DNA of 64,000 bases from Solobacterium sp. (lineage in GTDB: Bacteria > Bacillota_I > Bacilli_A > Erysipelotrichales > Erysipelotrichaceae), in assembly GCA_017941735.1 (NCBI GenBank), contig JAGAVW010000042.1, positions 236-64,235 on the forward strand, read 5' to 3'. Of the stretch, positions 1,000 to 61,797 are shown one piece after another. The first letter of the stretch is position 1. Every line of letters starts with the position of its first letter. A model generated the notes under the pieces. The model worked only from the letters and a program-made list of their open reading frames with translations, was not told the origin of the DNA and did no database searches. The position numbers and the translations under genes are program-made.

Positions 1000-1005
1000 A
1001 AGCAT

Positions 1006-10449: not shown

Positions 10450-10989
10450 AAAGGGAATGTGTTCCGCTAGTAAAAAACCAATACAAAGATAAGGCGCAAA
10501 ACGGATTGCGCCTTTTAATTGTTTATGGCGTAAGCCATAAATGATAAGCGCAAGAAAACTAGCGAAGAATAAAGCATAAATAATGTGCTCCCCACGTAAT
10601 AATGCCCATACAGATAAAAGCTTCACATCCCCATATCCTAGCCACTTTACATATGCAAAACCAAGGGTTAATAAAAGCGTTAAGCTAAAAGAGACCCAAT
10701 TGAAGCTTTGGCGTAAAAGAACGACGAATAAAATGAGTATCCAACTTAAATCAGGAATCTCTCCACAACGATAATCTGTATAAGCTGCTAGATATAAAAC
10801 TGGTATCAGTAAAACAAGATAAGGCATATGATGAGTACTTAAAAATAGACAAGTTAAAAAGCCATTGATGAAAAGCGCAAAGTAATAACGATACTTATGA
10901 TCTTCTAAGTCTTTGAATTGTACATACCAATCCGAATAGAGTTGAAACAGGATACCACTGCATAAATTAAGAATCAAAATATGGGTCAT
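10441..10989 (-). CDS. A24-family prepilin/preflagellin-type aspartic peptidase (no methyltransferase domain)
   Basis: Polytopic membrane protein with the two catalytic Asp contexts YTDYRCGEIPD and GYGDVKLL. SD ggagg 5 nt before ATG 10989. The 3' end overlaps the kinase gene by 9 nt. Confidence 0.7.
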   Translation of the reverse strand: MTHILILNLCSGILFQLYSDWYVQFKDLEDHKYRYYFALFINGFLTCLFLSTHHMPYLVLLIPVLYLAAYTDYRCGEIPDLSWILILFVVLLRQSFNWVSFSLTLLLTLGFAYVKWLGYGDVKLLSVWALLRGEHIIYALFFASFLALIIYGLRHKQLKGAIRFAPYLCIGFLLAEHIPFLH

Positions 10990-11080
10990 AATTGCCTCCA
11001 TCTATTAATTCAAGAATTCAAAGAGATTTCCTTTTTTTTCGATTTAAAGAAGTTATAATGAATGTAGGAGGAGTACATTT

Positions 11081-16478: not shown

Positions 16479-16937
16479 ATGGAATTAGGAATTATTGGAA
16501 TCGTCATTCTCTTGGATCAAATATCCAAGTACATCGTGCAACAAAATGCGGCGGCGATTGGTCAAATGGAAATCATTCCCAACTTTTTATATTTACGTTA
16601 CATCAAGAATACAGGGGCAGCGTGGAGTATGTTATCGAATCATACGATGTTATTGACGTTGATTTCAGTTGTTGAAATAGGGATTTTAGTTTACTTTTTG
16701 TTAGATGTACGTAAAAAGAAACAAACCTTGTATCGGATTGCGCTTAGCTTAATGATTGGTGGCGCCATTGGTAATCTCATTGACCGCGTGTCTTTTCAAT
16801 ATGTAAGAGACTTTATTGATACGTATATTTTCGGTTATGATTTTCCAGTCTTTAATATTGCGGATAGTGCGTTATGTATAGGGGCATTCTTATTGATTGT
16901 TATCCTCTTATTTGAGAAAAAGGAGAGTGAAGCATGA
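16479..16937 (+). CDS. lspA: Lipoprotein signal peptidase II
   Basis: 152 aa, 4 TM; NTGAAWS and FNIADS motifs. Confidence 0.93.
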   Translation: MELGIIGIVILLDQISKYIVQQNAAAIGQMEIIPNFLYLRYIKNTGAAWSMLSNHTMLLTLISVVEIGILVYFLLDVRKKKQTLYRIALSLMIGGAIGNLIDRVSFQYVRDFIDTYIFGYDFPVFNIADSALCIGAFLLIVILLFEKKESEA

Positions 16938-25821: not shown

Positions 25822-25857
25822 AAATATTGAAGCTAGGATGGCTTCAATATTTTCTTT
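25819..25857. terminator. Bidirectional rho-independent terminator between convergent genes
   Basis: aatattgaagc / gcttcaatatt 11-bp stem (25823-25851), A-run on the left, T-run on the right; overlaps the 3' codons of the minus-strand gene. Confidence 0.75.
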
Positions 25858-26225
25858 AGAATATCGGTAATGTTTTTTTGTTGCATGCGTTTGTTTAGAA
25901 CGCGTGAAGTACTATTTCGAAATTGGGTCATACCTTTTTGACCGGATTTCTTTTTATCTTTGAGAATGGCTTTTAAGACCATGAGCCCACCAAATATATC
26001 TTTTGCGCCAATTGGGGAAGGTTTCTTATCCGGGTCTGGTTTTGGTAATTGTTCCATCTTCTCATTTAGCAATGTTGTTTCTTTATTGATTCCTTCAACA
26101 CGCACATTCATTTGTTTTAGTGCTTCTAGTAAAGGACGCAAACGTAACAGCGTCAAAACAAGAAAAACAACCAGTAAGATAAGCGCACCATAGAGTAGAT
26201 AATAATTGTATGGATATAAGTTCAT
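25833..26225 (-). CDS. Hypothetical single-pass membrane protein with a basic C-terminus
   Basis: 130 aa; N-terminal TM (LLYGALILLVVFLVLTLL), coiled segment, Lys-rich tail. Confidence 0.5.
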   Translation of the reverse strand: MNLYPYNYYLLYGALILLVVFLVLTLLRLRPLLEALKQMNVRVEGINKETTLLNEKMEQLPKPDPDKKPSPIGAKDIFGGLMVLKAILKDKKKSGQKGMTQFRNSTSRVLNKRMQQKNITDILKKILKPS

Positions 26226-26786: not shown

Positions 26787-26863
26787 GTCCTCGTAGCTCA
26801 GCTGGATAGAGCACTCGCCTTCTAAGCGAGTGGTCATGGGTTCGAGTCCCCTCGAGGACGCCA
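26787..26863 (+). tRNA. tRNA-Arg (anticodon TCT)
   Basis: Cloverleaf read by hand: acceptor gtcctcg/cgaggac, D-arm gctc..gagc, anticodon stem ctcgc/gcgag with loop cTTCTaa (anticodon 26821-26823), TTCGAGT T-loop, encoded CCA. One U-C mismatch in the T-stem. Confidence 0.9.
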
Positions 26864-40710: not shown

Positions 40711-42297
40711 ATGATTTACGAAGATAAAATCTTAATTGGAAAAGCGGAAGATAAAAACGTATATATGCTTCCAAAACAATTGAATCGCCATGGTTTAATT
40801 GCTGGTGCTACTGGTACAGGTAAAACCGTCACTTTAAAAGTTATTGCTGAAACACTCAGTGAAATGGGTGTACCTACCATCTTTGCAGATGTCAAACGTG
40901 ATTTAACCGGCATGATTGAAGAAGGCGATGCGGCAGGAATTCAAGGTCGTTTAGAATCGATGGGAATCAAGGATTATACGGTTCGTAAGTATCCAGTTCA
41001 ATTCTTTGATGTATACCGTGAAAAAGGATTACCAATTCGTGCTTCCATCCAAGATATGGGACCAATCCTTATTAGCCGTATCTTAGATTTAACGGATGCA
41101 CAAGAAGGCATTCTCAATATCATTTTTAGAATTGCAAATGAAGGCATTATCGTAGATGGGGAACGTGTTCATCTTGACCTAATTGACTTAAAAGACTTAC
41201 AAGCGATGTGTTCTTATGTTGGAGAACATGCGCAAGACTATACACTCGAATATGGGAATATCACAAAACAAAGTGTTGGTGCTTTACAGCGTAAACTACT
41301 TGTATTAGAAGAACAAGGTGGCGAATCATTCTTTGGTGCCCCAGCGCTTGATGTGAATGATTTATTACGTCAAAAAGATGGCGAAGGCGTTATGAATATT
41401 ATTGAATGTGAAAAGCTTTATAGGCACCCATTATTATATTCTGCATTTTTCTTCTGGATGTTAGAGAAATTACAACGTACATTACCAGAAGTAGGTGATT
41501 TAGAGAAACCAAAACTCGCTTTCTTCTTTGATGAAGCGCATACCTTATTTGATAATACAAGTCGTGCATTAATGGAGCGTATCGAACAAACCGTAAAGAG
41601 TGTTCGATCAAAAGGTATCGCAGTGTTCTTTGTTACTCAAGTACCAGAAGATATTCCAAGTTCCATTCTTAGCCAATTGAGTAATCGTATTCAACATAGT
41701 TTAAGAGCTTATACACCAGCTGAAATTAAAGCTGCGAAATTAGCTGCCGAATCCTTCCGCGATAATCCAGATTTAGATGAAGCTACATTAATCTCGAATA
41801 TGGAAACGGGAACAGCGCTTGTCTCATGTTTAGATGAAAGTGGTGCGCCAAGTATTGTTGAAATGACAAAGATTTTACCTCCAAAATCAAGCATGAAAAT
41901 GGCGGATGATATGCGTGTATTAAGTGTAGTGGATGCATCAGAGCTTAGCTATAAGTATCTAGAGGATGTAGATCCAGAAAGTGCATCTGAAAATATCGAT
42001 GTAGCGCGTGTAAAAGAAGAAGAGGCTTTACAAGCATTAGAAGAAGCGGAACGTCTTAGAAAAGAAGAAGAAAAGCGTAGAAAAGAAGAAGAAAAAGCTG
42101 CTGCAAAAGCGGAAGAAAGAAGGAGACGTGAAGAAGAAAAAGAAGCAGCACGTAGGAAACGGGAAGAAGAAAAGGCTGCTAATGAGCCTACTTGGAGTGA
42201 TAAATTAGCGAAAAAAGCACGTAATAAAGCAGAAAATGAAATGCTGAATATCGCTATCCGGCAAGCACGTAAATATTTAAAGAATTTCTTGAAATAG
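40711..42297 (+). CDS. HerA-like P-loop ATPase (DUF853/YjgR family) with a charged C-terminal tail
   Basis: Walker A GATGTGKT, Walker B FFFDEAH. The last ~110 aa are an E/K/R/A-rich low-complexity helix (EEEKRRKEEEKAAAKAEERRRREEEKE). Confidence 0.8.
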   Translation: MIYEDKILIGKAEDKNVYMLPKQLNRHGLIAGATGTGKTVTLKVIAETLSEMGVPTIFADVKRDLTGMIEEGDAAGIQGRLESMGIKDYTVRKYPVQFFDVYREKGLPIRASIQDMGPILISRILDLTDAQEGILNIIFRIANEGIIVDGERVHLDLIDLKDLQAMCSYVGEHAQDYTLEYGNITKQSVGALQRKLLVLEEQGGESFFGAPALDVNDLLRQKDGEGVMNIIECEKLYRHPLLYSAFFFWMLEKLQRTLPEVGDLEKPKLAFFFDEAHTLFDNTSRALMERIEQTVKSVRSKGIAVFFVTQVPEDIPSSILSQLSNRIQHSLRAYTPAEIKAAKLAAESFRDNPDLDEATLISNMETGTALVSCLDESGAPSIVEMTKILPPKSSMKMADDMRVLSVVDASELSYKYLEDVDPESASENIDVARVKEEEALQALEEAERLRKEEEKRRKEEEKAAAKAEERRRREEEKEAARRKREEEKAANEPTWSDKLAKKARNKAENEMLNIAIRQARKYLKNFLK

Positions 42298-51253: not shown

Positions 51254-51607
51254 ATGGCGGATGTAAAGCAAAAGCGTCTTGCGGGTACCATCCGAAAGAA
51301 TATAAGTGATATTATTCAATTTGAGGTCAAAGATCCTAGTGTTGGATTTGTCACCATTACAGATGTAGAGGTTTCAAGCGACCATAGTTATGCGACTGTC
51401 TATGTTTCCTTTTTAGGGAAAGAAGAGCGGGCTGCAGCTGGCTTAAAAGCTCTAGAACGTGCAAAAGGACATATCCGCACACAATTAAGCAAACGCTTAA
51501 CCATACGACGTTGCCCAGAACTCATTTTCAAGATTGATGAAGCAATGCAGAATGGGCAAAAGATTGAAGAAATCTTAAGAGAAATACACGAAAAAGAACA
51601 AGAATAG
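51254..51607 (+). CDS. rbfA: Ribosome-binding factor A
   Basis: 117 aa; KH-like RbfA pattern (VTITDVEVSSDHSYATVYVS). Confidence 0.95.
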   Translation: MADVKQKRLAGTIRKNISDIIQFEVKDPSVGFVTITDVEVSSDHSYATVYVSFLGKEERAAAGLKALERAKGHIRTQLSKRLTIRRCPELIFKIDEAMQNGQKIEEILREIHEKEQE

Positions 51608-51633
51608 ATTGCAGAAATGCAATCTTTTTTTTT
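51606..51633 (+). terminator. Strong rho-independent terminator after rbfA
   Basis: agattgca gaaa tgcaatct followed by T9. Confidence 0.85.
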
Positions 51634-51680: not shown

Positions 51681-51980
51681 ATGAAATCAATTACAGTACA
51701 ACCAGAAGAAGTAGAAGCATGTGCAATGCGAATCGATGATGAAAATATGCATTATCAGCAAACTTTTGCACAACTATTTGAAGCGGTCGATGCGATGAAA
51801 GCAGGCTGGCAAGGAAAGGATAATACCGCCTTTAGTAATCAAATTCGAAAATATGAAGGAGACTTTAGAGAAATGTCTGTGCTTTGTACACAATACAGTG
51901 AATTCCTAAAGAAATCAGCGCGGGCTTATCGTGAGACGCAAGATTCAATTGCATCCCAAGCATCTAATTTAATTCAATAG
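51681..51980 (+). CDS. WXG100 (ESAT-6-like) family protein 1
   Basis: 100 aa helical hairpin with a central W-x-G (AGWQGKDNTAF). SD aggagg then ATG 51681 (track GTG 51666). Confidence 0.85.
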   Translation: MKSITVQPEEVEACAMRIDDENMHYQQTFAQLFEAVDAMKAGWQGKDNTAFSNQIRKYEGDFREMSVLCTQYSEFLKKSARAYRETQDSIASQASNLIQ

Positions 51981-51990
51981 GAGGTAAATC

Positions 51991-52290
51991 ATGAATGGAC
52001 TAAAGATTTCACTTGCGGAAGTAAGTGAATGTGCAATGAAAATTCGCAATTACAACCAATTAATGTTTGAGCAACTATCCAATATGAAGAAAGAAATGAA
52101 TCAAACCAATGCATCTTGGATATCCGATGGTGGAGAAGCAATCCGTGCAAAGTTTAATCAATTTGCAGCACGCTTTGATACCCAAAAAGAAATCATTGAT
52201 ACGTATGCAAAGTTCTTAGATATGACGGTATCGAATTATGATTCCCTTGAAACAACGATTCATTCCAATGCTTCGGGCATGCAAGCTTAG
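51991..52290 (+). CDS. WXG100-like family protein 2 (non-canonical turn, C-terminal YxxxE)
   Basis: 99 aa paralogue-like (EVSECAMKI versus EVEACAMRI). Turn is ASWISDGGEA. YDSLE lies near the C-terminus. SD aggagg. Confidence 0.75.
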   Translation: MNGLKISLAEVSECAMKIRNYNQLMFEQLSNMKKEMNQTNASWISDGGEAIRAKFNQFAARFDTQKEIIDTYAKFLDMTVSNYDSLETTIHSNASGMQA

Positions 52291-54349
52291 AAGTATTATC
52301 CTTTGCATTTTCCTTGGCGCCTTGACGCTTGTAAGTACAGGGTGCCAAGGTCCTCCAGTGGCTGCTTATACCTTAGGAGAATGGTTTCAAAGAATCCAAG
52401 AGCATGCAAATTTAGTTGCCTACGAACGTCAACCATATTTTCATCATATTGATGCGAATAATTATTATTTTGATGCGGTACAAGCCCTAGTTGATTGGCA
52501 AATAGTAAAACAAGAAGACACGATTGAACTAGAAAATCCTCTGACCAAAGAATGGGTTGCTTATACACTTGTGAATTTACTTGAATTTGAAACAAATACA
52601 ATCGATCAAGAAATCAAAGATGTGAATCAATCAAGGTTTCCAAAACAGGTATCGCGCGCCGTCTCTTATGGTTTATTCTCATTGAACCAATTAAATCAAT
52701 TTGAACCAAAAGAAATCATTGCGAAAGAAGATGCCGATGCATTATTAGAAAAGGTAATAAAAACCATTAATAATCGCGATTTTGGAACGAGTCAAATTCA
52801 AGATATTCAATGGAAAGACCAGGATAAAATCATCGAATTAAGTCCAATTGAATGGAATGAAGATAAGATTCTTATTACGCATAATCCAAGTTTAAAGACC
52901 AATCAAACAATAACGATTGATCATGCTTTATACAAAATCTTGGAAATTGAAGAAGGCATACCTTATGATGCATTAAGAATTGAACCAACAAGCATAGAAG
53001 AAAGTGTCGATACAATCCATTTATTAAATTCTTTTGAAGTCGATTTTGAAAATGCCTATATTGTTGAGGAAAGAGATAACAAGCATTCTTATATCATCAA
53101 TGAAAACCATCATCTAATGGCCTATGCATTGCCTAGTCATTCCTTTGACTTCAATGGTTTCCAAGTGCAATACCAACTAACTAGTGCTGGTTTTCAATGT
53201 AAAGTCACTAAAAAGATGGACCATGGCACACTTGAAGGGATATTCAACCTTAATTCCATCCATCCGAGTTATCAACTTGATTACACAAAGGGAAACGTAG
53301 AATCTGCCTATTTTAAGCTTGCTTTTCAAACCTCAGAAAAAGTGGGATTTCATCATAGTAACTATAAGACACTCTATGGAGATTTTAGTGAATTAGATCC
53401 AAAGAATTTATGGAATACGATTCAATCAATTTTTAAGAATCGTAACGAAATCGAAAACATCGCCATTCCGATTTGTACCATCGCAATCCCTATACCTGAA
53501 GCCCCAGGCCTAGATTTAACATTAGCTTTGCAAGTGAAATTAGGCGCGAATGGTAGGGCAGAACTCGTTTTAAATCAACAAGAGTGTTTTGGAATGGAAG
53601 TACGAAACGGACATATGCGTCCTTTCTCGGATTTTGATCATTCATCTAAAGCAGAGATACAAGGCGATACGTCTTTGCTTGCTTCGATTCAGTTTGCGCT
53701 AAATGGGTTTAAACAGAACCTCATGGATTTATCCTTTGAAGGTGGTGCGAAAGCTTCTTTTGATACGCAAGTGCATTTATATGAGGATGATGGAAAAGAA
53801 GTAAGGAATAGTGATTTACCAATTGATGCCTTAGATGAGCTTGGTGACGGGAATGGAAATTTTATGGCTTGCGCAGATGTGCATGCGTATTGGCTATTAA
53901 ATGCGCTTATCAATAGTAATCAATCTTTACTTGGACGCCATGGGTTTACGCATCAATTTGCATTATTAAATGAAGAAAATGCGAGTCTTTTTCCAGGTAG
54001 TAAACATATTGAAAATGGGCACTTTGTACCAAAATGTACTAGATTACAACGGGAAAAGAAAAAGAAGAAAGAAGAAACGACCTTAAGTACAAATCAAATT
54101 CAATTAGAGGCTTATGTCATTGAACTAAATGAATCAGAGCATAAGTCGATACATATTCTTTCTTTACCAAAAGGTTATACCAAAGAGGACTTACAAATTA
54201 CATCGACTAAACCAAATATCGTAGGTGTAGATGGGAATGGAAATTTAACTGCCTTAAAAGAAGGAAATTCGATTATCCAAATTCAAACAAATGATGGGAA
54301 ATACAAGCAGAATTGTACGGTAATAGTCCGTATTCAAAAAGACAAATGA
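52238..54349 (+). CDS. Exported (lipo)protein with SLH-like N-terminal repeats and a C-terminal Big_2 Ig-like domain
   Basis: Signal peptide ending LVSTGC (near-lipobox). Alternative start ATG 52268. Two degenerate SLH-like repeats by eye. Lys-rich linker REKKKKKEE. Big_2-like C-terminus (ITSTKPNIVGVDGNGNLTALKEGNSIIQIQT). No further TM segments. Confidence 0.7.
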   Translation: MIPLKQRFIPMLRACKLRSIILCIFLGALTLVSTGCQGPPVAAYTLGEWFQRIQEHANLVAYERQPYFHHIDANNYYFDAVQALVDWQIVKQEDTIELENPLTKEWVAYTLVNLLEFETNTIDQEIKDVNQSRFPKQVSRAVSYGLFSLNQLNQFEPKEIIAKEDADALLEKVIKTINNRDFGTSQIQDIQWKDQDKIIELSPIEWNEDKILITHNPSLKTNQTITIDHALYKILEIEEGIPYDALRIEPTSIEESVDTIHLLNSFEVDFENAYIVEERDNKHSYIINENHHLMAYALPSHSFDFNGFQVQYQLTSAGFQCKVTKKMDHGTLEGIFNLNSIHPSYQLDYTKGNVESAYFKLAFQTSEKVGFHHSNYKTLYGDFSELDPKNLWNTIQSIFKNRNEIENIAIPICTIAIPIPEAPGLDLTLALQVKLGANGRAELVLNQQECFGMEVRNGHMRPFSDFDHSSKAEIQGDTSLLASIQFALNGFKQNLMDLSFEGGAKASFDTQVHLYEDDGKEVRNSDLPIDALDELGDGNGNFMACADVHAYWLLNALINSNQSLLGRHGFTHQFALLNEENASLFPGSKHIENGHFVPKCTRLQREKKKKKEETTLSTNQIQLEAYVIELNESEHKSIHILSLPKGYTKEDLQITSTKPNIVGVDGNGNLTALKEGNSIIQIQTNDGKYKQNCTVIVRIQKDK

Positions 54350-57300
54350 TTATTACGGTAATTGAAAACTTAAAAAGTCGTTATCTTTTCCTTAAGACGA
54401 ATATCGAATCCTTAGAATTAAAAGAGGAAACGATTCGTCTTTTAAAAGTGCGTGAGGGCTACCACATCGAATTAACTGCATCATTTTCCTTTTTAGACGA
54501 ACAACTTTTAAAACAAGGTAGTACGGTAAAATTGCTTCATAAATTCACGGGAGAAGTCATTCTTCTATATGCATCTATCTTTTTAGAAGGATTTACACAT
54601 TTTCAAAAATATGCGATTGAAAAAGCAATTCTAACGATTGGAAATATAGGCGCAGATATTGTGATTCCGGATCAAAGAATACAAGAAAAGATAAGCATTG
54701 ATTTTACGAAACAAGAGATTCAAAATGCCAATCCTTTCTTTGTCGCAATGAACCACAATTGTATTCAAGAAGCTACTTTTAAAAACGGAGATTGTTTACA
54801 GATTTTAGATATTCAGCTTTTATTCCATGAATCTTTCTTTATGATGAATTATCCAAGTGCGATAGAAGTAAATCTTACGCCTTATAAGATACCTAAAGAA
54901 GCGAAACAATTACCTACGCATACATTAATTGAAACAAAGAAAAGACCTTGTATCAAAGAAAAACCAGTACCAATGGAAGTGCTGTTTGAAGAACCTATCA
55001 AGCTTCATTCTGTGAATCGTAATCCTTTAATTTTTATGATGGGACCAGCCTTAATGATGTCCTTTGCGACTTTATTAAGTGGAAGTTTAATGTTTTATCA
55101 AGGTTTATTAAATGGACGTAGACCTATTGAAATGTTACCGATGGTGCTACTACCAGGTGTTATGTTACTATCGACCTTATTGTGGAATCCATTACAAAGA
55201 ATTTATGAAAAACATAAACAGACAAAAGAAATCAAAGAAAGAAATCATGCCTATAGAGAATACTTACTTGCACTAGATAAAACTTGTCGTAAACATGATT
55301 TATCTTATCAAAAGGAAATGGAAGGGCAATTTCCATCCCTTCATTCCATTTTTGAAGGAAATATGATAAAACAGTTTATTTATGAGCGAGAGTGTGATGA
55401 TTATCGCTTTTTATCCTTGCGTTTAGGGATGCATAAAGAATCGAGCATCACCTTTAAACAATCCTTTAAATTAGATAAAAAGGATGAAATTAGGCACATG
55501 ATTGACCATTTTCAAAAGAAATATGATAAATCATGTCCATTACCATATGTATTAGGCTTTAAAAATTACCAAAGCATTGGCCTTATTGATGTTGATGGAA
55601 ATGGCTTTACGAATCTTCTTTTTCCGTTTGCGTTTTTTCATAATCCAAATGATTTAAAGATCGTTGTTTACGGGGATCAAACCTTCTTTAAACAACACTT
55701 ATTTCTATATAATCTTCCACATATACATCATAATGGGTCTTTGTTATTGGTAGATCAAAAGAAGCATTTAGATTCTTTATTATTGGAATTGAAGAATAAG
55801 GGCTATGCGGTATTAATATTTGCGACAAAACATATACCAAATATAGATGGAATCTATCAAATACAGCTATTAAAAGAATTTCAATATGGCTTTGATGTTT
55901 TACTTCATCCATCTGACCGATCTATTTTTATGAATAACCAATGGTTTTCCGTTGATTTTGATAATTTTGAAATAACGGAAGAATCTTTTTCCATCTTTAC
56001 GTATTATAAAGCTCCAGGTAGCATCAATGAAGTCATAGAAAGTCCTAGTTTTTATTCGATTCATAATTTGAAAGCAATTGATAATAAGATAATTCATGAA
56101 AATTGGCGTAAGAATCATGTATATGAAGGAATGATTGCGCATATTGGAGCAAAAGAGAATGGCGAAGTGATATACCTAAATCTACATGAAGATTATGAAG
56201 GCCCACATGGACTAATTGCAGGTATGACAGGGAGTGGTAAGAGTGAATTATTATTAACTTTGATTTATTCGCTTTGTATAAACTATTCGCCCCATGAATT
56301 GCAATTTGTATTAATTGATTTTAAAGGTGGAGGTCTTTCTTCAAACTTTTTCATGCAGGAAGAATATGAACCGCATATTTGTAATGTGTTAACGAATTTG
56401 GATGAATCTGAAATAAAGAAGGCAATCTTATCGTTGGAATTAGAATGTCGCTATCGGGAAGCATTATTCCAAGAAGTAAGTAAACAGCTCAGTACACCCA
56501 TCTATCATATTCATCAGTACCAACGAATGGCTGCGTTAAAACATTGGAAGTATCTACCATCTTTAGTGATTATTGTTGATGAATTTGCGGAATTAAAAAG
56601 AGATTATCCCGACTTCTTACAAGAACTCATTCGTATTGCACGCGTTGGCCGTAGCTTAGGCATTCACTTAATACTCTCTACTCAAAAACCAAGCGGTATT
56701 GTGAGTGAACAGATTTGGGCGAATGCGCAATTTAAAATATGCCTAAAAGTGCAAGATGAAATTGATTCAAAAGAAGTATTAAAAGTTTCAGATGCTGCTT
56801 ATTTACGTGAAAAGGGTGAATTCTATTGCATCAGCAATCATGAATTAGAGAAAGGAAGATCTGGTTATATTCATGCCTTATATGAAACCAATCCGAAACG
56901 CATGCGACTTTTAGATTTTTGTGGTAAGGAAATTGAAACCTTTCAAGCACAAACAGAAGTAGAATCATACCAAATGGAATACATCCTAAATGCACTTTTA
57001 TGTATGAAACATGATTTAAACATTCCTTCCTATCGGATTTGGCTTCCGCCTTTATATAAAAAGAATTGTCCCAATCCATTATTAAAAGAAGGGATACCCA
57101 TTGGGGAAATGGATTGTATTGATTTGCGTAAACAAATCCCATTATCCTTTCAAGAAGAATCGCTGTTGGTTGTAAGTCCTAATCGAGAAGAAAAGAAACA
57201 ATTTTTCTTACTTCTGCTAGATAGGTTATCGTTACTGGATGATTGTTTATTATTCATCATTGATGACTTAGAAATTGTCGAAGAGAAGACGCAATACTTT

Positions 57301-58149
57301 AAAAACTGTTTAGGAATCACAAATAGCGAAGAGCAAGATTATTTATATCGCTTTATGAAGCATTTAAAAGAAGGGCACTTACCTCCTTATAAAGAGCTTT
57401 ATGTAGTGATTACAGATATGACTATTTTTCTAAAATCGGAATTACAAGATAGTGTTTTACAGCTCGTCATGGATAAAGCAGCCTTTTATAGAATTAAATT
57501 AATCTCTTTTTCTTCCTTAGCTGCAAGTATTCCATATCGTATATTTATGCGTATGCAAATGCGTATTTCTCTCTATAATGATAGTTCGCAAGACCTAGTT
57601 TATTTATTTGAACAAGGCTCTATTCCACCATTTCTTAAGAAGGGATATGGACTGATTAAATATGAAAATCTTTATAAATTCTGTTATTACCGTCATAACC
57701 TATCATTTCTTGATAAAAATCATAATGAGATTGCATTACCTCATATTCCTAAAGTCATTTCAATGAATATGCAATCTTCCTTCATTGATATAGGCCAAAG
57801 CATTGAACAAGCTCAAATGGTTCGATTAGAGAAAGGAGAAATGGTGGCGTTATATCTTGTGGATGTTCGTTATGACTCGATTGTCTTTTCAAATTACCAA
57901 GATTCCTTTGTCTTTCATCAAGCGAATGAATCTTTTGTATGCACGAAGAATCAAATCCATTTTGTGCTTCTTGATAGCAGTGCGCTTAGCCATTATTTAC
58001 AAATGAACCAGTTACCAAAACATTTATTGTTGATAGGGAATATCAAGAATCAATATCTTATTCCCATTCCAAAAATAATCACGTTCAAAGAGAATTATGG
58101 GCTTTATATGCATGATGGAAAAAAGGAGTTGATACAACTTGCAGAATAA
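54346..58149 (+). CDS. essC: Type VII secretion EssC/YukB-type FtsK/SpoIIIE ATPase, shortened variant
   Basis: ATGA coupling to the upstream gene (ATG 54346). FHA-like N-terminus (ILTIGNIGADIVIP), two TM helices. D1 motifs PHGLIAGMTGSGKSE (Walker A nt 56221-56244), IDFKGGG, VIIVDEFAEL, VGRSLGIHLILSTQKPSG. The D2 and D3 equivalents lack GK[ST]. Confidence 0.9.
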   Translation: MIITVIENLKSRYLFLKTNIESLELKEETIRLLKVREGYHIELTASFSFLDEQLLKQGSTVKLLHKFTGEVILLYASIFLEGFTHFQKYAIEKAILTIGNIGADIVIPDQRIQEKISIDFTKQEIQNANPFFVAMNHNCIQEATFKNGDCLQILDIQLLFHESFFMMNYPSAIEVNLTPYKIPKEAKQLPTHTLIETKKRPCIKEKPVPMEVLFEEPIKLHSVNRNPLIFMMGPALMMSFATLLSGSLMFYQGLLNGRRPIEMLPMVLLPGVMLLSTLLWNPLQRIYEKHKQTKEIKERNHAYREYLLALDKTCRKHDLSYQKEMEGQFPSLHSIFEGNMIKQFIYERECDDYRFLSLRLGMHKESSITFKQSFKLDKKDEIRHMIDHFQKKYDKSCPLPYVLGFKNYQSIGLIDVDGNGFTNLLFPFAFFHNPNDLKIVVYGDQTFFKQHLFLYNLPHIHHNGSLLLVDQKKHLDSLLLELKNKGYAVLIFATKHIPNIDGIYQIQLLKEFQYGFDVLLHPSDRSIFMNNQWFSVDFDNFEITEESFSIFTYYKAPGSINEVIESPSFYSIHNLKAIDNKIIHENWRKNHVYEGMIAHIGAKENGEVIYLNLHEDYEGPHGLIAGMTGSGKSELLLTLIYSLCINYSPHELQFVLIDFKGGGLSSNFFMQEEYEPHICNVLTNLDESEIKKAILSLELECRYREALFQEVSKQLSTPIYHIHQYQRMAALKHWKYLPSLVIIVDEFAELKRDYPDFLQELIRIARVGRSLGIHLILSTQKPSGIVSEQIWANAQFKICLKVQDEIDSKEVLKVSDAAYLREKGEFYCISNHELEKGRSGYIHALYETNPKRMRLLDFCGKEIETFQAQTEVESYQMEYILNALLCMKHDLNIPSYRIWLPPLYKKNCPNPLLKEGIPIGEMDCIDLRKQIPLSFQEESLLVVSPNREEKKQFFLLLLDRLSLLDDCLLFIIDDLEIVEEKTQYFKNCLGITNSEEQDYLYRFMKHLKEGHLPPYKELYVVITDMTIFLKSELQDSVLQLVMDKAAFYRIKLISFSSLAASIPYRIFMRMQMRISLYNDSSQDLVYLFEQGSIPPFLKKGYGLIKYENLYKFCYYRHNLSFLDKNHNEIALPHIPKVISMNMQSSFIDIGQSIEQAQMVRLEKGEMVALYLVDVRYDSIVFSNYQDSFVFHQANESFVCTKNQIHFVLLDSSALSHYLQMNQLPKHLLLIGNIKNQYLIPIPKIITFKENYGLYMHDGKKELIQLAE

Positions 58150-58399
58150 AGAGGAAATTAAAATTTTTGTGCATTTTCCTTTAATCAATCAGGTTTATTA
58201 CATTACTGTGACAAGAAATATGAGTTTTAAAGAAATACTAAATTATTTTATGTCTTTTCTTCATGATGAATTAGGTGATTTCTATACGATGAATGAAGAA
58301 ACGATTCTTCTTGAAACAAGCTCAATGCAGATATGTAATCTTACAGATACATTATCTAACCTTAATGTTCAAGAAGGGATGCATTTCTATTTATTTTGA
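58139..58399 (+). CDS. YukD/EsaB-like ubiquitin-fold (beta-grasp) protein
   Basis: 86 aa. Pattern IKIFVHF...YYITV...SFKEIL....L......L...L.....L..L.VQEGMHFYLF matches the EsaB/YukD size and layout. TTG start 10 nt after aggag; overlaps the essC end by 11 nt. Confidence 0.6.
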   Translation: MQNKEEIKIFVHFPLINQVYYITVTRNMSFKEILNYFMSFLHDELGDFYTMNEETILLETSSMQICNLTDTLSNLNVQEGMHFYLF

Positions 58400-59212
58400 A
58401 AAACGTGTTTGATAGGAACAAGTTTGACAAAGTGGGGCACTTAGACGGTTTTCTTTTAGTGCTAATACAAAGTCTAGATATTCTTTTGTTTCTAGAATCG
58501 TAGCTAAAGAAGATGTAAACAGATTCCCAAATGGAATTGCGCCATCCGCATCTAAACAACAAGGAACAACTGTCCCATCCACAAGAATTGCTAATTGCTC
58601 GATTCCTCCTAGACAAGTACCTTTTGTATATACTTTATCCTTGTTTTGATCGGGCCAAGTGAAACCATCCGCAAAAGCGACATAGACATGTTCTTTGATT
58701 TGATAACTCTTATTTCGTTTTGTATCAGTGAACGCAAATTGGTTTTGGAGTTTTGCTAAGAATTGTTCCGCTTTTGCACTAGGGGTATTTGCACGCCAGA
58801 AACGTAATTCAAGGTATTGGTCTTGTTGTAATTCATCCATATATATTAAAACCGTTTGATATAGGTCTTCTAAATCAATGGATGGATTTTCATCTAGACT
58901 ATGTAAGGAAATGGATAATTTACGCACGGAAGGGTGTTTAAATAGGCGATATTGTTTTAAGAAAGTCCCATTTGTCACAAGTTGTACTTTCATATGATTC
59001 GCATCACAAATGTTTAGAATCTCTTCGCATTGTGGATGTAGGAGTGGTTCGCCTAAAACATGTAAATAGATATAATCGGTAAGGGGTTTTACTTCCTGTA
59101 AGACATAAGAAAAAGAAGAGGGTGACATAAATTGTGGTTCTCTTCTTTTCATAGCACAAAAAGAGCAAGCTAGATTACAAGAATTCGTAATTTCAATATA
59201 AATGCGTTTCAC
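58391..59212 (-). CDS. Radical SAM enzyme with a SPASM-type C-terminal Cys cluster, substrate unknown
   Basis: CNLACSFC (CxxxCxxC) at residues 12-19. C-terminal GTCLGG...PCCLD...CQTC auxiliary-cluster pattern. GTG start. The 3' end overlaps the YukD-like gene by 9 nt. Confidence 0.8.
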   Translation of the reverse strand: MKRIYIEITNSCNLACSFCAMKRREPQFMSPSSFSYVLQEVKPLTDYIYLHVLGEPLLHPQCEEILNICDANHMKVQLVTNGTFLKQYRLFKHPSVRKLSISLHSLDENPSIDLEDLYQTVLIYMDELQQDQYLELRFWRANTPSAKAEQFLAKLQNQFAFTDTKRNKSYQIKEHVYVAFADGFTWPDQNKDKVYTKGTCLGGIEQLAILVDGTVVPCCLDADGAIPFGNLFTSSLATILETKEYLDFVLALKENRLSAPLCQTCSYQTRFSK

Positions 59213-59219
59213 GCATCTA

Positions 59220-59966
59220 TTATAGCGTTAGAATGCTCTTTTGAAGAAATGCTTTTGTGCGATCGGATTTTGGTTGCGTAAAGATTTCATCTGGAGTTCC
59301 TTTTTCTTCAATGACTCCTTCATCCATAAAGATTACTCGATTACTCACTTCTTTTGCAAAAGACATTTCATGTGTGACAACAACCATGGTAAGTCCTTCA
59401 AGAGCTAGTTGTTTCATAACTTGTAATACCTCTTGCACCATTTCTGGATCTAGGGCACTGGTTGGTTCGTCAAATAGCATAAGCTTTGGATTCATACATA
59501 GAGCTCTAGCAATCGCAACACGTTGTTTTTGGCCACCTGATAAGGTATTACTTGCAGCATAACGAAATGGCAACATGCCTACTTTTTCTAAATAAGTTAA
59601 GGCAATCTTTTCCGCTTCCGCTTTGGATCGCTTTAATACTTTTTCTTGGGCAACCATACAGTTTTCTAAAACATTCATATTTGAAAATAGATTAAACTGT
59701 TGGAAGCACATGCCAACTTGCGCACGATATTGATTGATATCTTTTACTTGTTGGATATTTTCACCAAATACTTCAATCGTTCCATCATCTGGTGTTTCAA
59801 GTAAATTGATACAACGCAAAAGGGTGGATTTCCCGGAACCAGATTTACCAATTAAGCAAACCACTTCGCCATTATAAACATCAAAATCTACACCTTTTAA
59901 AACTTCTAATGCGCCATACTTTTTATGAATATTTCGTATTTTAACTATGGGATTCTTTTCACTCAT
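59220..59966 (-). CDS. Polar amino acid ABC transporter ATP-binding protein (GlnQ/HisP-like)
   Basis: [29 protein letters not shown]. Confidence 0.93.
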
Positions 59967-60733
59967 ACATTTCTCCGGTCAGTTGCAAACTTCATGTTAT
60001 GGGGGTCGGTATCAGATTGAGGTAGACTTGTTTTTTGTTGATAGAGCTTTTTCTCAATTGTATTAAGAATGAGTGCTGCAATACTTGTTAATAGAAGGTA
60101 AATGGCAGCTTCAATGAAATAGGTTTCGGTATAACGATAGGTTGTACCCGCAATGGATTTTGCTTGAAACATTAGTTCAGTAATGGAAAGAATCATCAAT
60201 ACGGAAGAGTCTTTGATATTAACGATTAACTCATTTCCAATAGCAGGGAAAGCATTGCGTATAGCTTGCGGTAATATGACATGTTGCATTGTTTGCGCAT
60301 TTGACATACCAAGGGAGCGCGCGGCTTCAGTTTGGCCAATATCGACTGCTTGAATTCCTGCTCGAATAATTTCAGACATATAAGCACCCGTATTGATGGA
60401 GATGACAAATATAGCCGCAACCATCTTATCCCAGTGCACTATATTTAATAAGGCATAGTACAAAAATACCGCCTGTACCATCATAGGGGTACCACGGAAT
60501 ACCGTGATGTAAATAGAAGATAGAATATCAAATAGTTTCTTAATTACTTTTGAACTTTTCGAAGCATTGGGATCTAATCGGATTGCCCGTATTCCGCCTA
60601 CAAGCAATCCGAGTAAAAGCCCAAAGAACGTACCTAATAAGGAGACAATGAGGGTGGTACGCACACCCAATAGCAAACTAGGCCAATATTCTTCTAATAT
60701 TTCAAATATGATTTGGAAAAAAGTCTTTTCCAT
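59963..60733 (-). CDS. Polar amino acid ABC transporter permease (His/Glu/Gln/Arg/opine family)
   Basis: 256 aa, 5-6 TM; conserved EAA-type loop ([23 protein letters not shown]). Confidence 0.9.
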
Positions 60734-61560
60734 TATTCACTCACCGCTGGTTGTCTTTCTACCGCATCCGCCATAATGGATTCTCTTTCTTCTTCACTGA
60801 TTTTATCGAGTGCGGTTTGAATCGCATTGCGTAATTCCGTATTATCTTTTGCGACTGCAATCGAAACGGATGCATCTTCTACGGATCCTTGGAATCCATT
60901 ATCTTCACTGAATTCAACGAATGTTAAATCTGGATTTGCTGCTTTGACACCAATTGCAACTGGTAATTCTGATACAATTGCATCAACTGCACCTTGCTTA
61001 AGATCGTTTACTAAAGCAGGGAAATCCGCTTTTGGTGCTTCGTGAATGACACCTTCAATTTGATCAATTAAGTCATCATAAAGTGTTCCTTGTTGGCCAA
61101 TCACACGCTTACCAGCTAATTCTTGAATGCTTGTGATATTCGCAACATCAGAGCCAGCTTGTACGATGATAACTTCTTTTGAAATATAGTAAGGAGTTGT
61201 AAAACTGACGGATTCACGACGTGTTTCGGTATCTGTCATACCGGCGATAATCGCATCAATTTCATTATGTTGAAGGGCAGGAATTAAGTTATCCCAATCG
61301 GTTTTAACGATTTCAACTTCATAACCTAATGCTTCTGCAATGCGTGTCGCAATGACTACATCATAGCCATCCGCATAATCGGTTTCATTGATTTGTTGGG
61401 TAAATTCCCCAGCGGTTGTTGTTGTCCAGTTAAATGGGGCATAGTTGCATTCCATACCAACACGTAGTTTATTCGACGTATTTGATGTATTGTTTGAATT
61501 TCCGCAGCCAACTAAAGCTATCGAAAGAAGTAGAATAGATAATAATCTTGGTGTTCTCAT
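60733..61560 (-). CDS. Amino acid ABC transporter substrate-binding lipoprotein
   Basis: Lipobox LVGC; family-3 periplasmic binding protein pattern (DAIIAGMTDTETRRESVSFTTPY). Confidence 0.9.
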   Translation of the reverse strand: MRTPRLLSILLLSIALVGCGNSNNTSNTSNKLRVGMECNYAPFNWTTTTAGEFTQQINETDYADGYDVVIATRIAEALGYEVEIVKTDWDNLIPALQHNEIDAIIAGMTDTETRRESVSFTTPYYISKEVIIVQAGSDVANITSIQELAGKRVIGQQGTLYDDLIDQIEGVIHEAPKADFPALVNDLKQGAVDAIVSELPVAIGVKAANPDLTFVEFSEDNGFQGSVEDASVSIAVAKDNTELRNAIQTALDKISEEERESIMADAVERQPAVSE

Positions 61561-61574
61561 GGTAGAACCTCTTT

Positions 61575-61797
61575 CTAGTAAAGAAAGACCGTATGCTATT
61601 ACATACGGTCCTGTTCATCCATAAGCAATAGCGCCACTTCATAACCTGAAGGAGTGATGTAGATCTTCTCATACATCCCCACAGAATCAATTCGCCAATT
61701 CATTCTGTTCGGCGGTGGTTACCTTTTATCGACTTCATCGCTCGCCAGCTCCATCGATGACTCATTTGCACCGCTACCTCTATAACGTCTTTTTTAC
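61575..61797 (-). promoter_or_regulatory. Probable lysine (L-box) riboswitch with an intrinsic terminator expression platform
   Basis: Minus-strand leader reads AUAGAGGUAGCGGUG..AUGAGUC..UGGAG..AAAAGG..CACCGCCGAAC..[hairpin]..UGUGGGG[hairpin]CACUCCUUCAGG, collinear with the L-box core elements (AGAGGnGC, GAGUA, GGAG, AAAGG, CGCCGAAG, UGGGG, CUGUCA). Terminator gaccgtatg/catacggtc (61587-61610) plus U-run just before the SD. Confidence 0.65.

What the first reader, a model, noticed from the sequence alone, without database searches (positions are those of the whole stretch)
51681..58399. Compact non-canonical type VIIb-like secretion operon lacking EssA, EssB/YukC, EsaA/YueB and any LXG toxin
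Five co-directional genes are chained by stop/start overlaps: 23-53 nt, ATGA, and 11 nt. In order they are WXG100-1, WXG100-2, a ~700-aa exported lipoprotein-like protein, an EssC/YukB-type FtsK-SpoIIIE ATPase, and an 86-aa YukD/EsaB-like beta-grasp protein. The EssC D1 region carries the same motif strings I recall for S. aureus and B. subtilis EssC (PHGL[IV]AG.TGSGKSE, ID[FY]KGGG, [IV]GRSLGIHLIL[SA]TQKPSG), so the T7SSb assignment is solid. The characterised firmicute systems (ess, yuk) also require the membrane proteins EssB/YukC, EsaA/YueB and EssA/YueC. None of these is recognisable in this 64 kb, and there are no LXG/immunity cassettes. In their place sits one lineage-specific extracytoplasmic protein. 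Either the missing parts are encoded elsewhere, or this is a reduced and so far uncharacterised T7SS architecture: WXG pair + EssC + YukD + surface lipoprotein. It is embedded in a core ribosome-biogenesis locus.
Basis: partly seen in the sequence, partly recalled or inferred. Interest (0 to 1): 0.85.

Follow-up and report, generated by a model that had tools for sequence, protein, structure and literature searches.

The report
Compact Erysipelotrichaceae type VII secretion variant
This is a real five-gene type VII protein-secretion cluster, conserved in at least 50 gut, rumen and oral Erysipelotrichaceae species, that replaces the usual membrane partners with one cell-wall-binding lipoprotein and matches none of the ten published system subtypes.

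Summary
Five co-directional, overlapping genes lie at 51681-58399:
- two WXG100 proteins;
- a 693-aa lipoprotein;
- an EssC-type ATPase;
- an 86-aa ubiquitin-like protein.

No EssB/YukC, EsaA/YueB, EssA or LXG gene was found among the window's ORFs of 150 aa or more.

New findings:
1. The same gene order and the same start/stop overlaps recur in 50 species-level genomes, all labelled Solobacterium, Bulleidia, Anaerorhabdus or Erysipelotrichaceae, apart from about ten generically or differently labelled metagenome bins. The cluster usually sits between rbfA and truB.
2. The lipoprotein is not a diverged EsaA or EssB. It has an SLH cell-wall-binding domain, a long-stranded beta domain with no confident PDB match, and a Big_2 Ig-like domain.
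3. EssC has an N-terminal FHA domain and two TM helices. It has exactly one P-loop, in D1. D2 and D3 are homologous to EssC D2-D3 but degenerate.
4. The WXG pair is as conserved as housekeeping proteins. The machinery proteins are only 25-32% identical.

Garrett et al. (2024) already defined T7SSc-j, which lack EssA/EssB/EsaA. This architecture matches none of them, so it is a new variant of a known kind. Absence of the missing genes from the rest of the genome could not be tested.

The parts
51606..51625 (+). Terminator-like hairpin followed by a T-run, directly after rbfA. It separates the ribosome-biogenesis genes from the cluster.
   Evidence: 8-bp stem, T9 tail; sequence.
51681..51980 (+). 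WXG100-1 (99 aa, TsxA1-like), with a conserved W-x-G motif (AGWQGKDN).
   Evidence: PF06013 E 1.8e-12 and TIGR03930 50.6 bits, above its cutoff. Median 60% identity across 53 loci.
51991..52290 (+). WXG100-2 (99 aa, TsxA2-like), with a conserved C-terminal Y-D-x-L-E tail (a YxxxE motif).
   Evidence: NF035934 131.5 bits, above the cutoff of 100; PF06013 E 1.1e-6. Consensus from 54 sequences. Named 'pore-forming ESAT-6 family protein' by NCBI in Solobacterium, Bulleidia and Anaerorhabdus.
52268..54349 (+). Lipoprotein of 693 aa from the conserved ATG (703 aa from the upstream ATG of the mechanical ORF).
   Evidence: Family alignments. 23-nt overlap with WXG-2 in 41 of 50 loci and ATGA overlap with EssC in 29 of 50. 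AlphaFold model pLDDT 88.3.
52268..52345 (+). Signal peptide with lipobox (LVSTG-C). The Cys is at ORF residue 36.
   Evidence: This Cys is conserved in at least 90% of 79 family members. Lipobox survey. lspA is present in the window at 16479-16937.
52355..52777 (+). SLH (S-layer homology) cell-wall-binding domain, three repeats.
   Evidence: Foldseek match to B. anthracis Sap SLH: 3pyw E 4.9e-6, and 6bt4; TM-scores normalised to target 0.64 and 0.69. The family profile hits Sap at E 1.1e-6. 21 of 24 members hit Pfam SLH, best E 1.3e-7; the window protein itself only reaches E 0.1.
52790..54067 (+). Central beta-rich region: a small beta domain followed by a meander of 14-24-residue strands. 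Fold unassigned.
   Evidence: Secondary structure and pLDDT mostly above 85. No confident PDB or viral match covers it. 3 of 14 members weakly hit the hyaluronate-lyase N-terminal beta domain.
54095..54337 (+). C-terminal Big_2 Ig-like domain.
   Evidence: Pfam Big_2 in 11 of 14 members, best E 2.8e-8. PDB matches 7quz and 4hu8.
54346..58149 (+). EssC/TsxC-type FtsK-SpoIIIE ATPase (1267 aa).
   Evidence: TIGR03928 394 bits; PF01580 E 2.2e-25. YukB 9qks E 5e-72. Exact product on record.
54550..54849 (+). FHA domain of EssC (residues about 69-168). The phosphothreonine-binding Arg/Ser/His are not conserved.
   Evidence: A profile of 28 N-termini hits FHA domains: KIF13B 1.3e-4, Rv1747 3.3e-4, EmbR 3.7e-4, Ki-67 and GarA.
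55024..55200 (+). Two predicted transmembrane helices of EssC (residues about 227-285).
   Evidence: Hydrophobic stretches read from the sequence. This is the second most conserved block among 36 orthologues. It aligns weakly to the YukB membrane-proximal region.
56143..56850 (+). ATPase domain D1 with Walker A GMTGSGKS (56221-56244) and Walker B VIIVDEFAEL. It carries the only P-loop in the protein.
   Evidence: Most conserved block. There is one D1 P-loop and none in D2/D3 in all 36 orthologues; two orthologues show a second motif match at about position 683 or 847.
56893..58146 (+). Degenerate D2-D3 region (residues about 850-1267). It is homologous to EssC D2-D3 but has no P-loops.
   Evidence: The profile hits G. 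thermodenitrificans EssC D2-D3 (4lya E 2.8e-11). The canonical P-loop position aligns to 'vvspdreerks'. Conservation is low. This region is about 200 aa shorter in two Anaerorhabdus MAGs.
58139..58399 (+). 86-aa ubiquitin-like (YukD/EsaB/TsxB-like) protein with a TTG start.
   Evidence: A conserved ORF follows EssC in about 40 loci. 9 of 31 members hit Pfam YukD weakly, best E 0.0011. The family profile hits ubiquitin-like folds 5zmb (7e-4) and 2daj (5e-3). GGAG lies 10 nt upstream.

Best explanation
This is a chromosomal, vertically inherited, compact type VII secretion system of a Solobacterium/Bulleidia/Anaerorhabdus clade of Erysipelotrichaceae. It is built from five translationally coupled products.

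Proposed mechanism:
1. EssC is the only integral membrane component. It has FHA domains, two TM helices, one catalytic ATPase domain (D1) and two nucleotide-blind ATPase-like domains (D2, D3). It oligomerises to form the channel and motor, as EccC/EssC do in known systems.
2. The ubiquitin-like protein binds EssC and stabilises its assembly, as YukD does for YukB.
3. The two WXG100 proteins form a heterodimer. It is recognised through the conserved YxxxE tail of WXG-2, probably by the degenerate C-terminal domains of EssC, and is exported.
4. The lipoprotein is exported by Sec, lipidated at the conserved Cys and held on the wall polymer by its SLH domain. It provides the extracytoplasmic part. 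This is either a wall-spanning partner, filling the position that EsaA or TsxI fill elsewhere, or a docking platform for the secreted dimer.

Shown here: gene content, domain identities, conservation, gene coupling, and absence of EssB/EsaA/EssA/LXG from the locus.

Inferred: oligomerisation, the heterodimer, signal recognition, secretion itself, and the role of the lipoprotein.
For: Family and domain assignments:
- WXG100 pair, EssC and FtsK domain.
- FHA domain.
- D2-D3 homologous to EssC D2-D3 but without a P-loop.
- Ubiquitin-like small protein.
- SLH and Big_2 domains in the lipoprotein.
- Conserved lipobox Cys, and lspA present in the window.

Evidence of selection for function:
- The same order occurs in all 50 species-level genomes that carry the lipoprotein.
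- EssC ORFs are intact at only 26-33% identity.
- The 23-nt and ATGA overlaps are conserved.
- The WXG pair is 60-66% identical where InfB is 79% and NusA 64%.
- The conserved YxxxE tail is present on WXG-2.
- The cluster is tightly bracketed by housekeeping genes, leaving no room for further components.

Precedent:
- T7SS variants without EssA/EssB/EsaA share only the core of TsxA, TsxB and TsxC (PMC11217815).
- YukD acts as the assembly factor of YukB (bioRxiv 10.1101/2025.01.24.634720).
Against: - No experiment supports secretion.
- Whole genomes could not be searched, so trans-encoded EssB, EsaA or EssA homologues and effectors are not excluded.
- The YukD assignment rests on weak scores. 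The window's own protein has no Pfam hit.
- The window's own SLH score is weak (E 0.1). Only one of the three repeats keeps a TRxE-like motif, so binding to the wall polymer is uncertain.
- The FHA domains normally contact EssB, which is missing here.
- EssC and the lipoprotein diverge very fast (29-32% identity). EssC is split in one contig and shortened in two MAGs. This could indicate relaxed constraint.
- No consensus promoter was found in the 55-nt leader.
Confidence: 0.62

Rival explanations
1. It is an ordinary T7SSb whose EssB, EsaA and EssA (and LXG effectors) are encoded elsewhere in the genome. The lipoprotein is then an unrelated passenger gene.
For: EssC is closest to T7SSb-type EssC (TIGR03928 is the best NCBIfam hit; YukB is the best PDB hit). 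It carries non-phospho-binding FHA domains, like T7SSb EssC. In T7SSb these contact EssB (PMC11217815). Whole genomes were not searched.
Against: In the characterised T7SSb systems these genes sit next to essC (established knowledge). Here they are absent from 64 kb, and nothing beyond the five genes, housekeeping genes or metabolic insertions was seen in the stretches compared in 50 other genomes. The lipoprotein gene overlaps both neighbours in most species. EssC fails the EssC equivalog cutoff and has lost its D2 and D3 P-loops. The nearest outgroup EssCs also sit in clusters without EssB/EsaA Pfam hits.
Confidence: 0.12
2. The secretion machine is only EssC plus the ubiquitin-like protein. 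The lipoprotein is not part of the channel. It is a co-expressed surface protein, for example an adhesin or a wall-bound receptor that retains or presents the secreted WXG dimer.
For: SLH plus Big_2 is a typical surface-display and adhesin architecture. The protein uses Sec/SPase II rather than T7. It evolves fast, like surface-exposed proteins (32% identity).
Against: It has a strictly conserved position between WXG-2 and essC, with overlapping codons, in 50 species. It was never found away from essC in the genome scan. Other T7SS variants also carry one large extracytoplasmic component, such as EsaA, TsxI or TsgL.
Confidence: 0.2
3. The cluster is a decaying relic of a T7SS with no secretion function. 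Only the WXG proteins retain some cytoplasmic or other role.
For: D2 and D3 are degenerate. EssC, the lipoprotein and the small protein have very low identity (25-32%) against 60-66% for the WXG pair. EssC is split in L004 and shortened in two MAGs. GC content dips to 31-34% over essC.
Against: ORFs of more than 1200 codons stay open in 36 species at about 29% identity. The D1 catalytic motifs and TM helices are strongly conserved. Start/stop coupling is conserved. The lipobox Cys and several core residues of the lipoprotein are invariant across 79 sequences.
Confidence: 0.05

Closest known systems
T7SSb (S. aureus Ess, B. subtilis Yuk)
   Same: A WXG100 substrate. An EssC with N-terminal FHA domains that lack the phosphothreonine-binding residues, two TM helices and a highly similar D1. 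A separate small ubiquitin-like protein (EsaB/YukD). Bacillota host.
   Different: No EssB/YukC, EsaA/YueB or EssA in the locus. Two different WXG100 genes instead of one homodimeric EsxA. No LXG or immunity genes nearby. EssC D2 and D3 lack P-loops, and EssC is about 200 aa shorter. An SLH lipoprotein is present that T7SSb lacks.
T7SSg (Acetivibrio, Paenibacillus; Garrett et al. 2024, PMC11217815)
   Same: The closest match by parts list. Five components: two WXG100 proteins (A1, A2), a ubiquitin-like B, the ATPase C, and one extra non-cytoplasmic protein.
   Different: TsgC lacks FHA domains, whereas an FHA domain is detected here. The extra protein TsgL is a DUF5050 beta-propeller. Here it is an SLH + beta-meander + Big_2 lipoprotein with no DUF5050 hit and no propeller in the model. 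T7SSg lies next to Tad pilus genes, whereas this cluster lies between rbfA and truB.
TsdI/TseI/TsjI components of T7SSd, T7SSe and T7SSj
   Same: A large Sec-exported envelope protein containing Ig-like domains. It is proposed to span the envelope as EsaA does.
   Different: TsxI proteins are much larger (about 1650 aa), have many Ig-like domains and a C-terminal TM anchor, and come with a kinase (TsxD) and other parts. Here the anchor is an N-terminal lipid plus SLH, there is a single Big_2 domain, and the locus has no kinase or phosphatase.
T7SSa ESX systems (EsxA/EsxB heterodimer with a YxxxD/E signal)
   Same: A pair of non-identical WXG100 genes, one of which carries a C-terminal YxxxE motif. 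In ESX this motif is the secretion signal bound by EccC.
   Different: No EccB, EccD, EccE or MycP. EssC has FHA domains. The host is Bacillota. The function of the motif here is inferred only from its conservation.
SLH-anchored surface proteins (e.g. B. anthracis Sap)
   Same: A three-repeat SLH fold at the mature N-terminus.
   Different: It is not an S-layer protein. It also carries a lipobox, and only one repeat keeps a TRxE-like motif. It is embedded in a secretion-system operon.

Membership tests
Type VII secretion system, general core (TsxA + TsxB + TsxC; Garrett et al. 2024) | WXG100-family protein encoded in the cluster | tested here: met
   PF06013 and TIGR03930/NF035934 hits for both small genes.
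Type VII secretion system, general core (TsxA + TsxB + TsxC; Garrett et al. 2024) | Membrane-bound EccC/EssC-type FtsK-SpoIIIE ATPase | tested here: met
   PF01580 E 2.2e-25; TIGR03928 394 bits as best family; YukB E 5e-72; two hydrophobic helices before the ATPase region.
Type VII secretion system, general core (TsxA + TsxB + TsxC; Garrett et al. 2024) | Small ubiquitin-like YukD/EsaB-type protein | tested here: met
   The match is weak but consistent. 9 of 31 orthologues hit PF08817 (best E 0.0011). The family profile hits ubiquitin-like structures 5zmb (7e-4) and 2daj (5e-3). No structure model was made. The window's own protein has no Pfam hit.
T7SSb | EssC with N-terminal FHA domains | tested here: met
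   The N-terminal profile hits many FHA domains at E 1e-4 to 1e-2. One FHA domain is clearly detected. The first 70 residues are unassigned.
T7SSb | EssB/YukC pseudokinase membrane protein encoded with essC | tested here: not met
   No PF10140 hit among the window's ORFs of 150 aa or more. No room for it in the tightly bracketed cluster of most related loci. The rest of the genome could not be tested.
T7SSb | EsaA/YueB polytopic membrane protein with a large ectodomain | tested here: not met
   No such ORF in the window. The 700-aa protein has no TM helices beyond its signal peptide. Its model and profile match SLH and Big_2, not EsaA.
T7SSb | EssA small membrane protein | tested here: not met
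   No hit among ORFs of 150 aa or more. The only small TM ORF in a gap (25833-26225) gives a weak DUF948 hit. The small ORFs in the other two gaps (85 and 119 aa) and small ORFs overlapping other genes were not scanned.
T7SSb | NCBIfam TIGR03928 (T7_EssCb_Firm) equivalog score cutoff | tested here: not met
   394.2 bits against a cutoff of 778.4. Only D1 and the membrane-proximal region align to YukB.
T7SSg | TsgC ATPase lacks FHA domains | tested here: not met
   An FHA domain is detected in EssC.
T7SSg | TsgL DUF5050 beta-propeller component | tested here: not met
   No DUF5050 hit at E up to 1 or among 14 family members. The model shows SLH, a beta meander and Big_2, with no propeller match.
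T7SSg | Adjacent Tad pilus genes | tested here: not met
   The flanks are rbfA and rSAM/ABC/truB. A lone prepilin peptidase lies 40 kb away.
T7SSd/e/j | TsxD membrane Ser/Thr kinase and a TsxI Ig-rich protein with a C-terminal TM helix | tested here: not met
   No kinase in the window. The lipoprotein has a single Big_2 domain and no C-terminal hydrophobic helix.
SLH domain proteins | Three SLH repeats forming the Sap-type fold | tested here: met
   Foldseek matches 3pyw and 6bt4, probability 1.00, TM-scores to target 0.64 and 0.69. Profile against Sap E 1.1e-6. 21 of 24 members hit PF00395.
SLH domain proteins | Binding to pyruvylated secondary cell-wall polymer (needs CsaB in the genome and conserved TRAE motifs) | not testable with these tools
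   Only the second repeat keeps LT[RK]EW. csaB could not be searched genome-wide.
Bacterial lipoproteins | Signal peptide ending in a lipobox Cys; SPase II present | tested here: met
   LVSTG-C in the window. The Cys is conserved in at least 90% of 79 homologues. lspA is at 16479-16937. Lipidation itself was not tested.

The most novel reading that the evidence does not exclude
This would be an eleventh, undescribed T7SS subtype. In it, a single-P-loop EssC hexamer plus a YukD-like protein is the whole membrane machine. An SLH-anchored lipoprotein with a previously unseen long-stranded beta domain forms the conduit, or gate, through the cell wall. It is encoded in the core genome between rbfA and truB of a host-associated Erysipelotrichaceae clade, and it exports a highly conserved, possibly pore-forming, WXG100 heterodimer as its main cargo.
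Probability: 0.4. Interest if true: 0.72.

Novelty: new variant of a known kind. Interest (0 to 1): 0.55.

Why it matters
Type VII systems are studied mainly in mycobacteria, staphylococci and bacilli. How substrates cross the membrane and the thick wall is still unsettled.

- **A near-minimal natural system.** It appears to have one membrane protein, one catalytic ATPase site, one ubiquitin-like factor and one wall-bound lipoprotein. It would show which parts are truly required, and would be an attractive target for structural work.
- **An unclassified component.** The SLH lipoprotein has a central fold that found no confident match, so it adds to the catalogue of T7SS parts.
- **Host-associated carriers.** The carriers are common rumen, gut and oral anaerobes: Solobacterium, Bulleidia and Anaerorhabdus. 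The WXG pair is conserved at housekeeping level. This suggests an important and unstudied role for these proteins in host-associated communities.
- **Culturable strains exist.** Anaerorhabdus furcosa ATCC 25662 and Erysipelotrichaceae bacterium NK3D112 carry the cluster, so the predictions can be tested.

Tried and rejected
- **Single-sequence searches.**
  - The word-index search with the lipoprotein found only 3 homologues. That would have suggested an orphan. The exhaustive profile search showed a large family.
  - The genome-contig scan with the single EssC sequence found nothing.
A 14-sequence alignment worked.
- **First structure model.** The model built from 4 sequences was unusable (pLDDT 45). 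It was replaced by the 79-sequence model.
- **Lipoprotein as diverged EsaA, EssB or TsgL.** Rejected. No such hit appeared in Pfam, in PDB sequence profiles or in Foldseek.
- **Central beta domain.** The Foldseek PDB and viral searches gave only low-TM or low-probability matches: nuclear pore, phage tail tube (through Big_2), pneumolysin and BamA. The fold stays unassigned.
- **Small protein as YukD by direct search.** The 4-sequence profile gave only chance hits to Ku80. The 31-sequence profile was needed.
- **Extra substrates.** No additional WXG100 paralogues occur in the window or in any fetched locus. The larger gaps in some loci hold metabolic genes.
- **Literature.** No paper links Erysipelotrichaceae, Solobacterium or Bulleidia to T7SS, or links SLH to a T7SS core. 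No paper was found for the name 'pore-forming ESAT-6'.
- **Promoter.** No consensus sigma-70 site was found in the short leader.

Full report
**1. What is in the sequence**

Between rbfA (ends 51607) and a convergent radical-SAM/SPASM gene lie five + strand ORFs. rbfA is followed by a terminator-like hairpin at 51606-51625.

| Gene | Coordinates | Junction with the previous gene |
|---|---|---|
| WXG100-1 | 51681-51980 | follows the hairpin |
| WXG100-2 | 51991-52290 | 10-nt gap |
| Lipoprotein | 52268-54349 | 23-nt overlap |
| EssC | 54346-58149 | ATGA overlap |
| 86-aa ORF | 58139-58399 | 11-nt overlap; TTG start, GGAG 10 nt upstream |

The lipoprotein start is placed at the ATG that aligns with its homologues. 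The EssC product from 54346 is exactly the one on record in a public metagenome scaffold. That gene call missed the 86-aa ORF.

The window's other ORFs of 150 aa or more matched only housekeeping families. These include leuS, scpAB, a two-component system, ABC exporters, lspA, mutS2, uvrC, tig, lon, murG and murB, an FtsQ-type POTRA protein, fakA, recG, rnc, a HerA-like ATPase, polC, rimP, nusA, infB, truB and ribF. No EssB/YukC, EsaA/YueB, EssA or LXG family appears. The overlap is 23 nt, only one FtsK domain is detectable, and EssC falls below the EssC equivalog cutoff.

**2. The components**

*WXG pair.* Both small proteins are WXG100 family members. WXG-2 passes NCBIfam NF035934 (131.5 bits, cutoff 100). 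NCBI uses that family name, 'pore-forming ESAT-6 family protein', for its homologues in Solobacterium, Bulleidia and Anaerorhabdus. The name is an annotation, not a tested function, and I found no paper behind it. Across 54 loci WXG-1 keeps W-x-G. WXG-2 keeps a C-terminal Y-D-x-L-E, which has the form of the YxxxD/E signal known from ESX substrates. That comparison is established knowledge, and its function here is inferred.

*EssC.*
- D1 (residues about 600-835) is very similar to B. subtilis YukB (E 5e-72). It carries Walker A GMTGSGKS and Walker B VIIVDEFAEL.
- A profile of 28 N-termini hits FHA domains at E 1e-4 to 1e-2. The Arg/Ser/His that bind phosphothreonine are replaced, as reported for T7SSb EssC (PMC11217815).
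- Two hydrophobic helices (about 227-285) form the second most conserved block.
- A profile of the C-terminal 420 residues hits the D2-D3 crystal structure of G. thermodenitrificans EssC (4lya, E 2.8e-11). The canonical P-loop aligns to 'vvspdreerks'.
- All 36 full-length orthologues have one P-loop in D1 and none in D2 or D3. Two show a second motif match near D1. Two Anaerorhabdus MAGs have a 1050-aa EssC that lacks most of D3.

*Small protein.* It has no Pfam hit by itself. An equivalent ORF follows EssC in about 40 loci. Of 31 aligned members, 9 weakly hit Pfam YukD (best E 0.0011). The family profile hits ubiquitin-like structures 5zmb (7e-4) and 2daj (5e-3). I accept it as a YukD/TsxB-like beta-grasp protein, with moderate confidence.

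*Lipoprotein.* The word-index search suggested an orphan with 3 homologues. An exhaustive profile search found more than 100 full-length clusters at 50% identity. With a 79-sequence alignment the AlphaFold model is good (pLDDT 88.3, pTM 0.77).
- The N-terminal domain (about 40-180) is an SLH domain. Foldseek matches B. anthracis Sap SLH (3pyw E 4.9e-6, and 6bt4; TM-scores to target 0.64 and 0.69). Independent sequence profiles hit Sap. 21 of 24 members hit Pfam SLH.
- The C-terminus is a Big_2 Ig-like domain.
- The central 420 residues form a small beta domain plus a meander of 14-24-residue strands. No confident PDB or viral match covers them.
- The Cys that ends the signal peptide is conserved in at least 90% of the family. 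SPase II is encoded in the window.
- Nothing resembles EsaA, EssB or the T7SSg beta-propeller.

**3. Distribution and conservation**

A genome-collection scan with the lipoprotein alignment returned 50 species-level genomes. Apart from about ten bins with generic or different labels, all are labelled Solobacterium, Bulleidia, Anaerorhabdus or Erysipelotrichaceae. They include the cultured Anaerorhabdus furcosa ATCC 25662 and strain NK3D112. Three further metagenome contigs carry the cluster.

- Every locus with enough sequence has WXG-1, WXG-2, lipoprotein and EssC in that order.
- The 23-nt WXG-2/lipoprotein overlap is kept in 41 of 50 loci. The ATGA lipoprotein/EssC overlap is kept in 29 of 50.
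- The cluster usually sits 72-142 nt after rbfA. It is followed, after only the small ORF, by the rSAM gene. Larger gaps in some loci hold metabolic genes.
- No extra WXG paralogues occur in any locus.

Identity of window proteins to their orthologues in related loci:

| Protein | Identity |
|---|---|
| InfB | 79% |
| NusA | 64% |
| WXG-2 | 66% |
| WXG-1 | 60% |
| Lipoprotein | 32% |
| EssC | 29% |
| Small protein | 25% |

The putative cargo is thus conserved like a housekeeping protein while the machine diverges fast. Even so, ORFs of more than 1200 codons stay open and the D1 and TM motifs stay fixed. That argues against decay.

**4. How it most likely works**

- EssC is the only integral membrane protein. 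I propose that it oligomerises to form both channel and motor, driven by D1 alone.
- The ubiquitin-like protein would stabilise this assembly, as YukD does for YukB (bioRxiv 10.1101/2025.01.24.634720).
- The WXG pair would be exported as a heterodimer through the WXG-2 tail.
- The lipoprotein is Sec-exported, lipid-anchored and SLH-bound to the wall. It would supply the extracytoplasmic part, either as a wall-spanning partner or as a docking platform.

These steps are inferred from family knowledge. Only the parts list, the gene coupling and the conservation are shown here.

Rivals:
- The missing T7SSb parts are encoded elsewhere (confidence 0.12).
- The lipoprotein is a co-expressed surface protein rather than part of the machine (0.20).
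- The cluster is a relic (0.05).

**5. Comparison with what is known**

Garrett, Higginson and Palmer (2024, PMC11217815) already described T7SSc-j. These lack EssA/EssB/EsaA and share only TsxA, TsxB and TsxC. So the absence of those parts is no longer surprising in itself.

- T7SSg is closest by parts list (A1, A2, B, C and one extra protein). Its ATPase lacks FHA domains, its extra protein is a DUF5050 propeller, and it lies next to Tad genes. All three features were tested here and not met.
- T7SSd, e and j have an Ig-rich TsxI protein with a C-terminal TM helix, plus kinases. These were not met either.
- Neither the paper nor its supplements mention Erysipelotrichaceae. No paper links SLH proteins to a T7SS core.
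- Garrett et al. describe four predicted NTPase domains in every subtype's ATPase. They do not report a single-P-loop EssC.
- The nearest outgroup EssCs (1520-1550 aa) also sit in clusters of EssC, an 84-87-aa gene (one with a weak UBL hit) and several genes of about 100 aa, with no EssB/EsaA hits. Compact architectures may therefore be common in this part of the tree.

**6. Limits**

- No structure was predicted for the small protein or for EssC.
- The window's own SLH and YukD scores are weak. Those assignments rest on family profiles.
- No subtype phylogeny could be built.

**7. Verdict**

This is a real, strongly conserved, unpublished architecture of a known kind of system. It is a new variant, of moderate to good interest (0.55). 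The most novel reading that remains open is a new minimal T7SS subtype with a wall-anchored conduit protein (probability about 0.4).

Noticed in passing
window 51681-58399 compared with L002-L054: Evolutionary rates inside one operon are very uneven. The WXG100 pair is 60-66% identical to its orthologues, similar to NusA at 64%. EssC, the lipoprotein and the ubiquitin-like protein are only 25-32% identical. This is unexplained. It could reflect co-evolving machine parts, surface-exposed diversification, or relaxed constraint.
   Followed up: partly
window 54001-58000: GC content dips to 31.5-33.7% over essC, against about 37-40% in the flanks, and GC skew flattens from about 52000 onward.
   Followed up: no
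window 61621-61790 (- strand): A lysine riboswitch (71.7 bits) lies upstream of the convergent operon. That operon is SBP (60733-61560), permease (59963-60733), ABC ATPase (59220-59966) and a radical-SAM/SPASM gene (58391-59152). The arrangement suggests a lysine-regulated amino-acid transporter with an unexpected rSAM/SPASM enzyme as its last gene. The rSAM gene's end overlaps the small T7SS gene's end by 9 nt.
   Followed up: no
window 1003-1185 and 26787-26860: A T-box leader lies upstream of leuS (1216-3618), and there is a single tRNA gene.
   Followed up: no
L055 10001-17011; L057 10001-16776: The nearest non-clade EssC homologues (1520-1550 aa) head clusters of EssC, an 84-87-aa overlapping gene (one with a weak UBL hit) and three to six genes of about 100 aa with no Pfam hits. 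No EssB or EsaA is present. In L057 a 1964-aa Metallophos protein follows. These may be further undescribed compact T7SS layouts.
   Followed up: partly
L004 4195-8052; L044 12120-15272; L045 12033-15170: EssC is split into 435-aa and 844-aa ORFs in one Logan contig. This could be a real frameshift or an assembly error. In two Anaerorhabdus MAGs EssC is about 1050 aa and lacks most of D3.
   Followed up: partly
L007 16294-17370; L014 16303-17334: In two Solobacterium MAGs an additional 343-358-aa lipoprotein gene (signal peptide ending in GC) is inserted between the small ubiquitin-like gene and the rSAM gene. It was not characterised.
   Followed up: no
window 52268-52290: The lipoprotein start codon and its first seven codons lie inside the codons for the conserved C-terminal tail of WXG-2 (…SNASGMQA*). 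This 23-nt stretch is therefore constrained in two reading frames, in 41 of 50 loci.
   Followed up: partly
window 40711-42297 and 10441-11001 (-): A HerA-like ATPase (HerA_C, 548 bits) lies directly upstream of polC. A lone type IV prepilin peptidase gene has no pilus genes nearby.
   Followed up: no
L011, L012, L016, L020, L023, L029 (record titles): Several public bins that carry this Erysipelotrichaceae-specific cluster are labelled Bifidobacteriaceae, Duodenibacillus, Lachnospiraceae or Eubacterium. These are probably mislabelled or contaminated bins.
   Followed up: no
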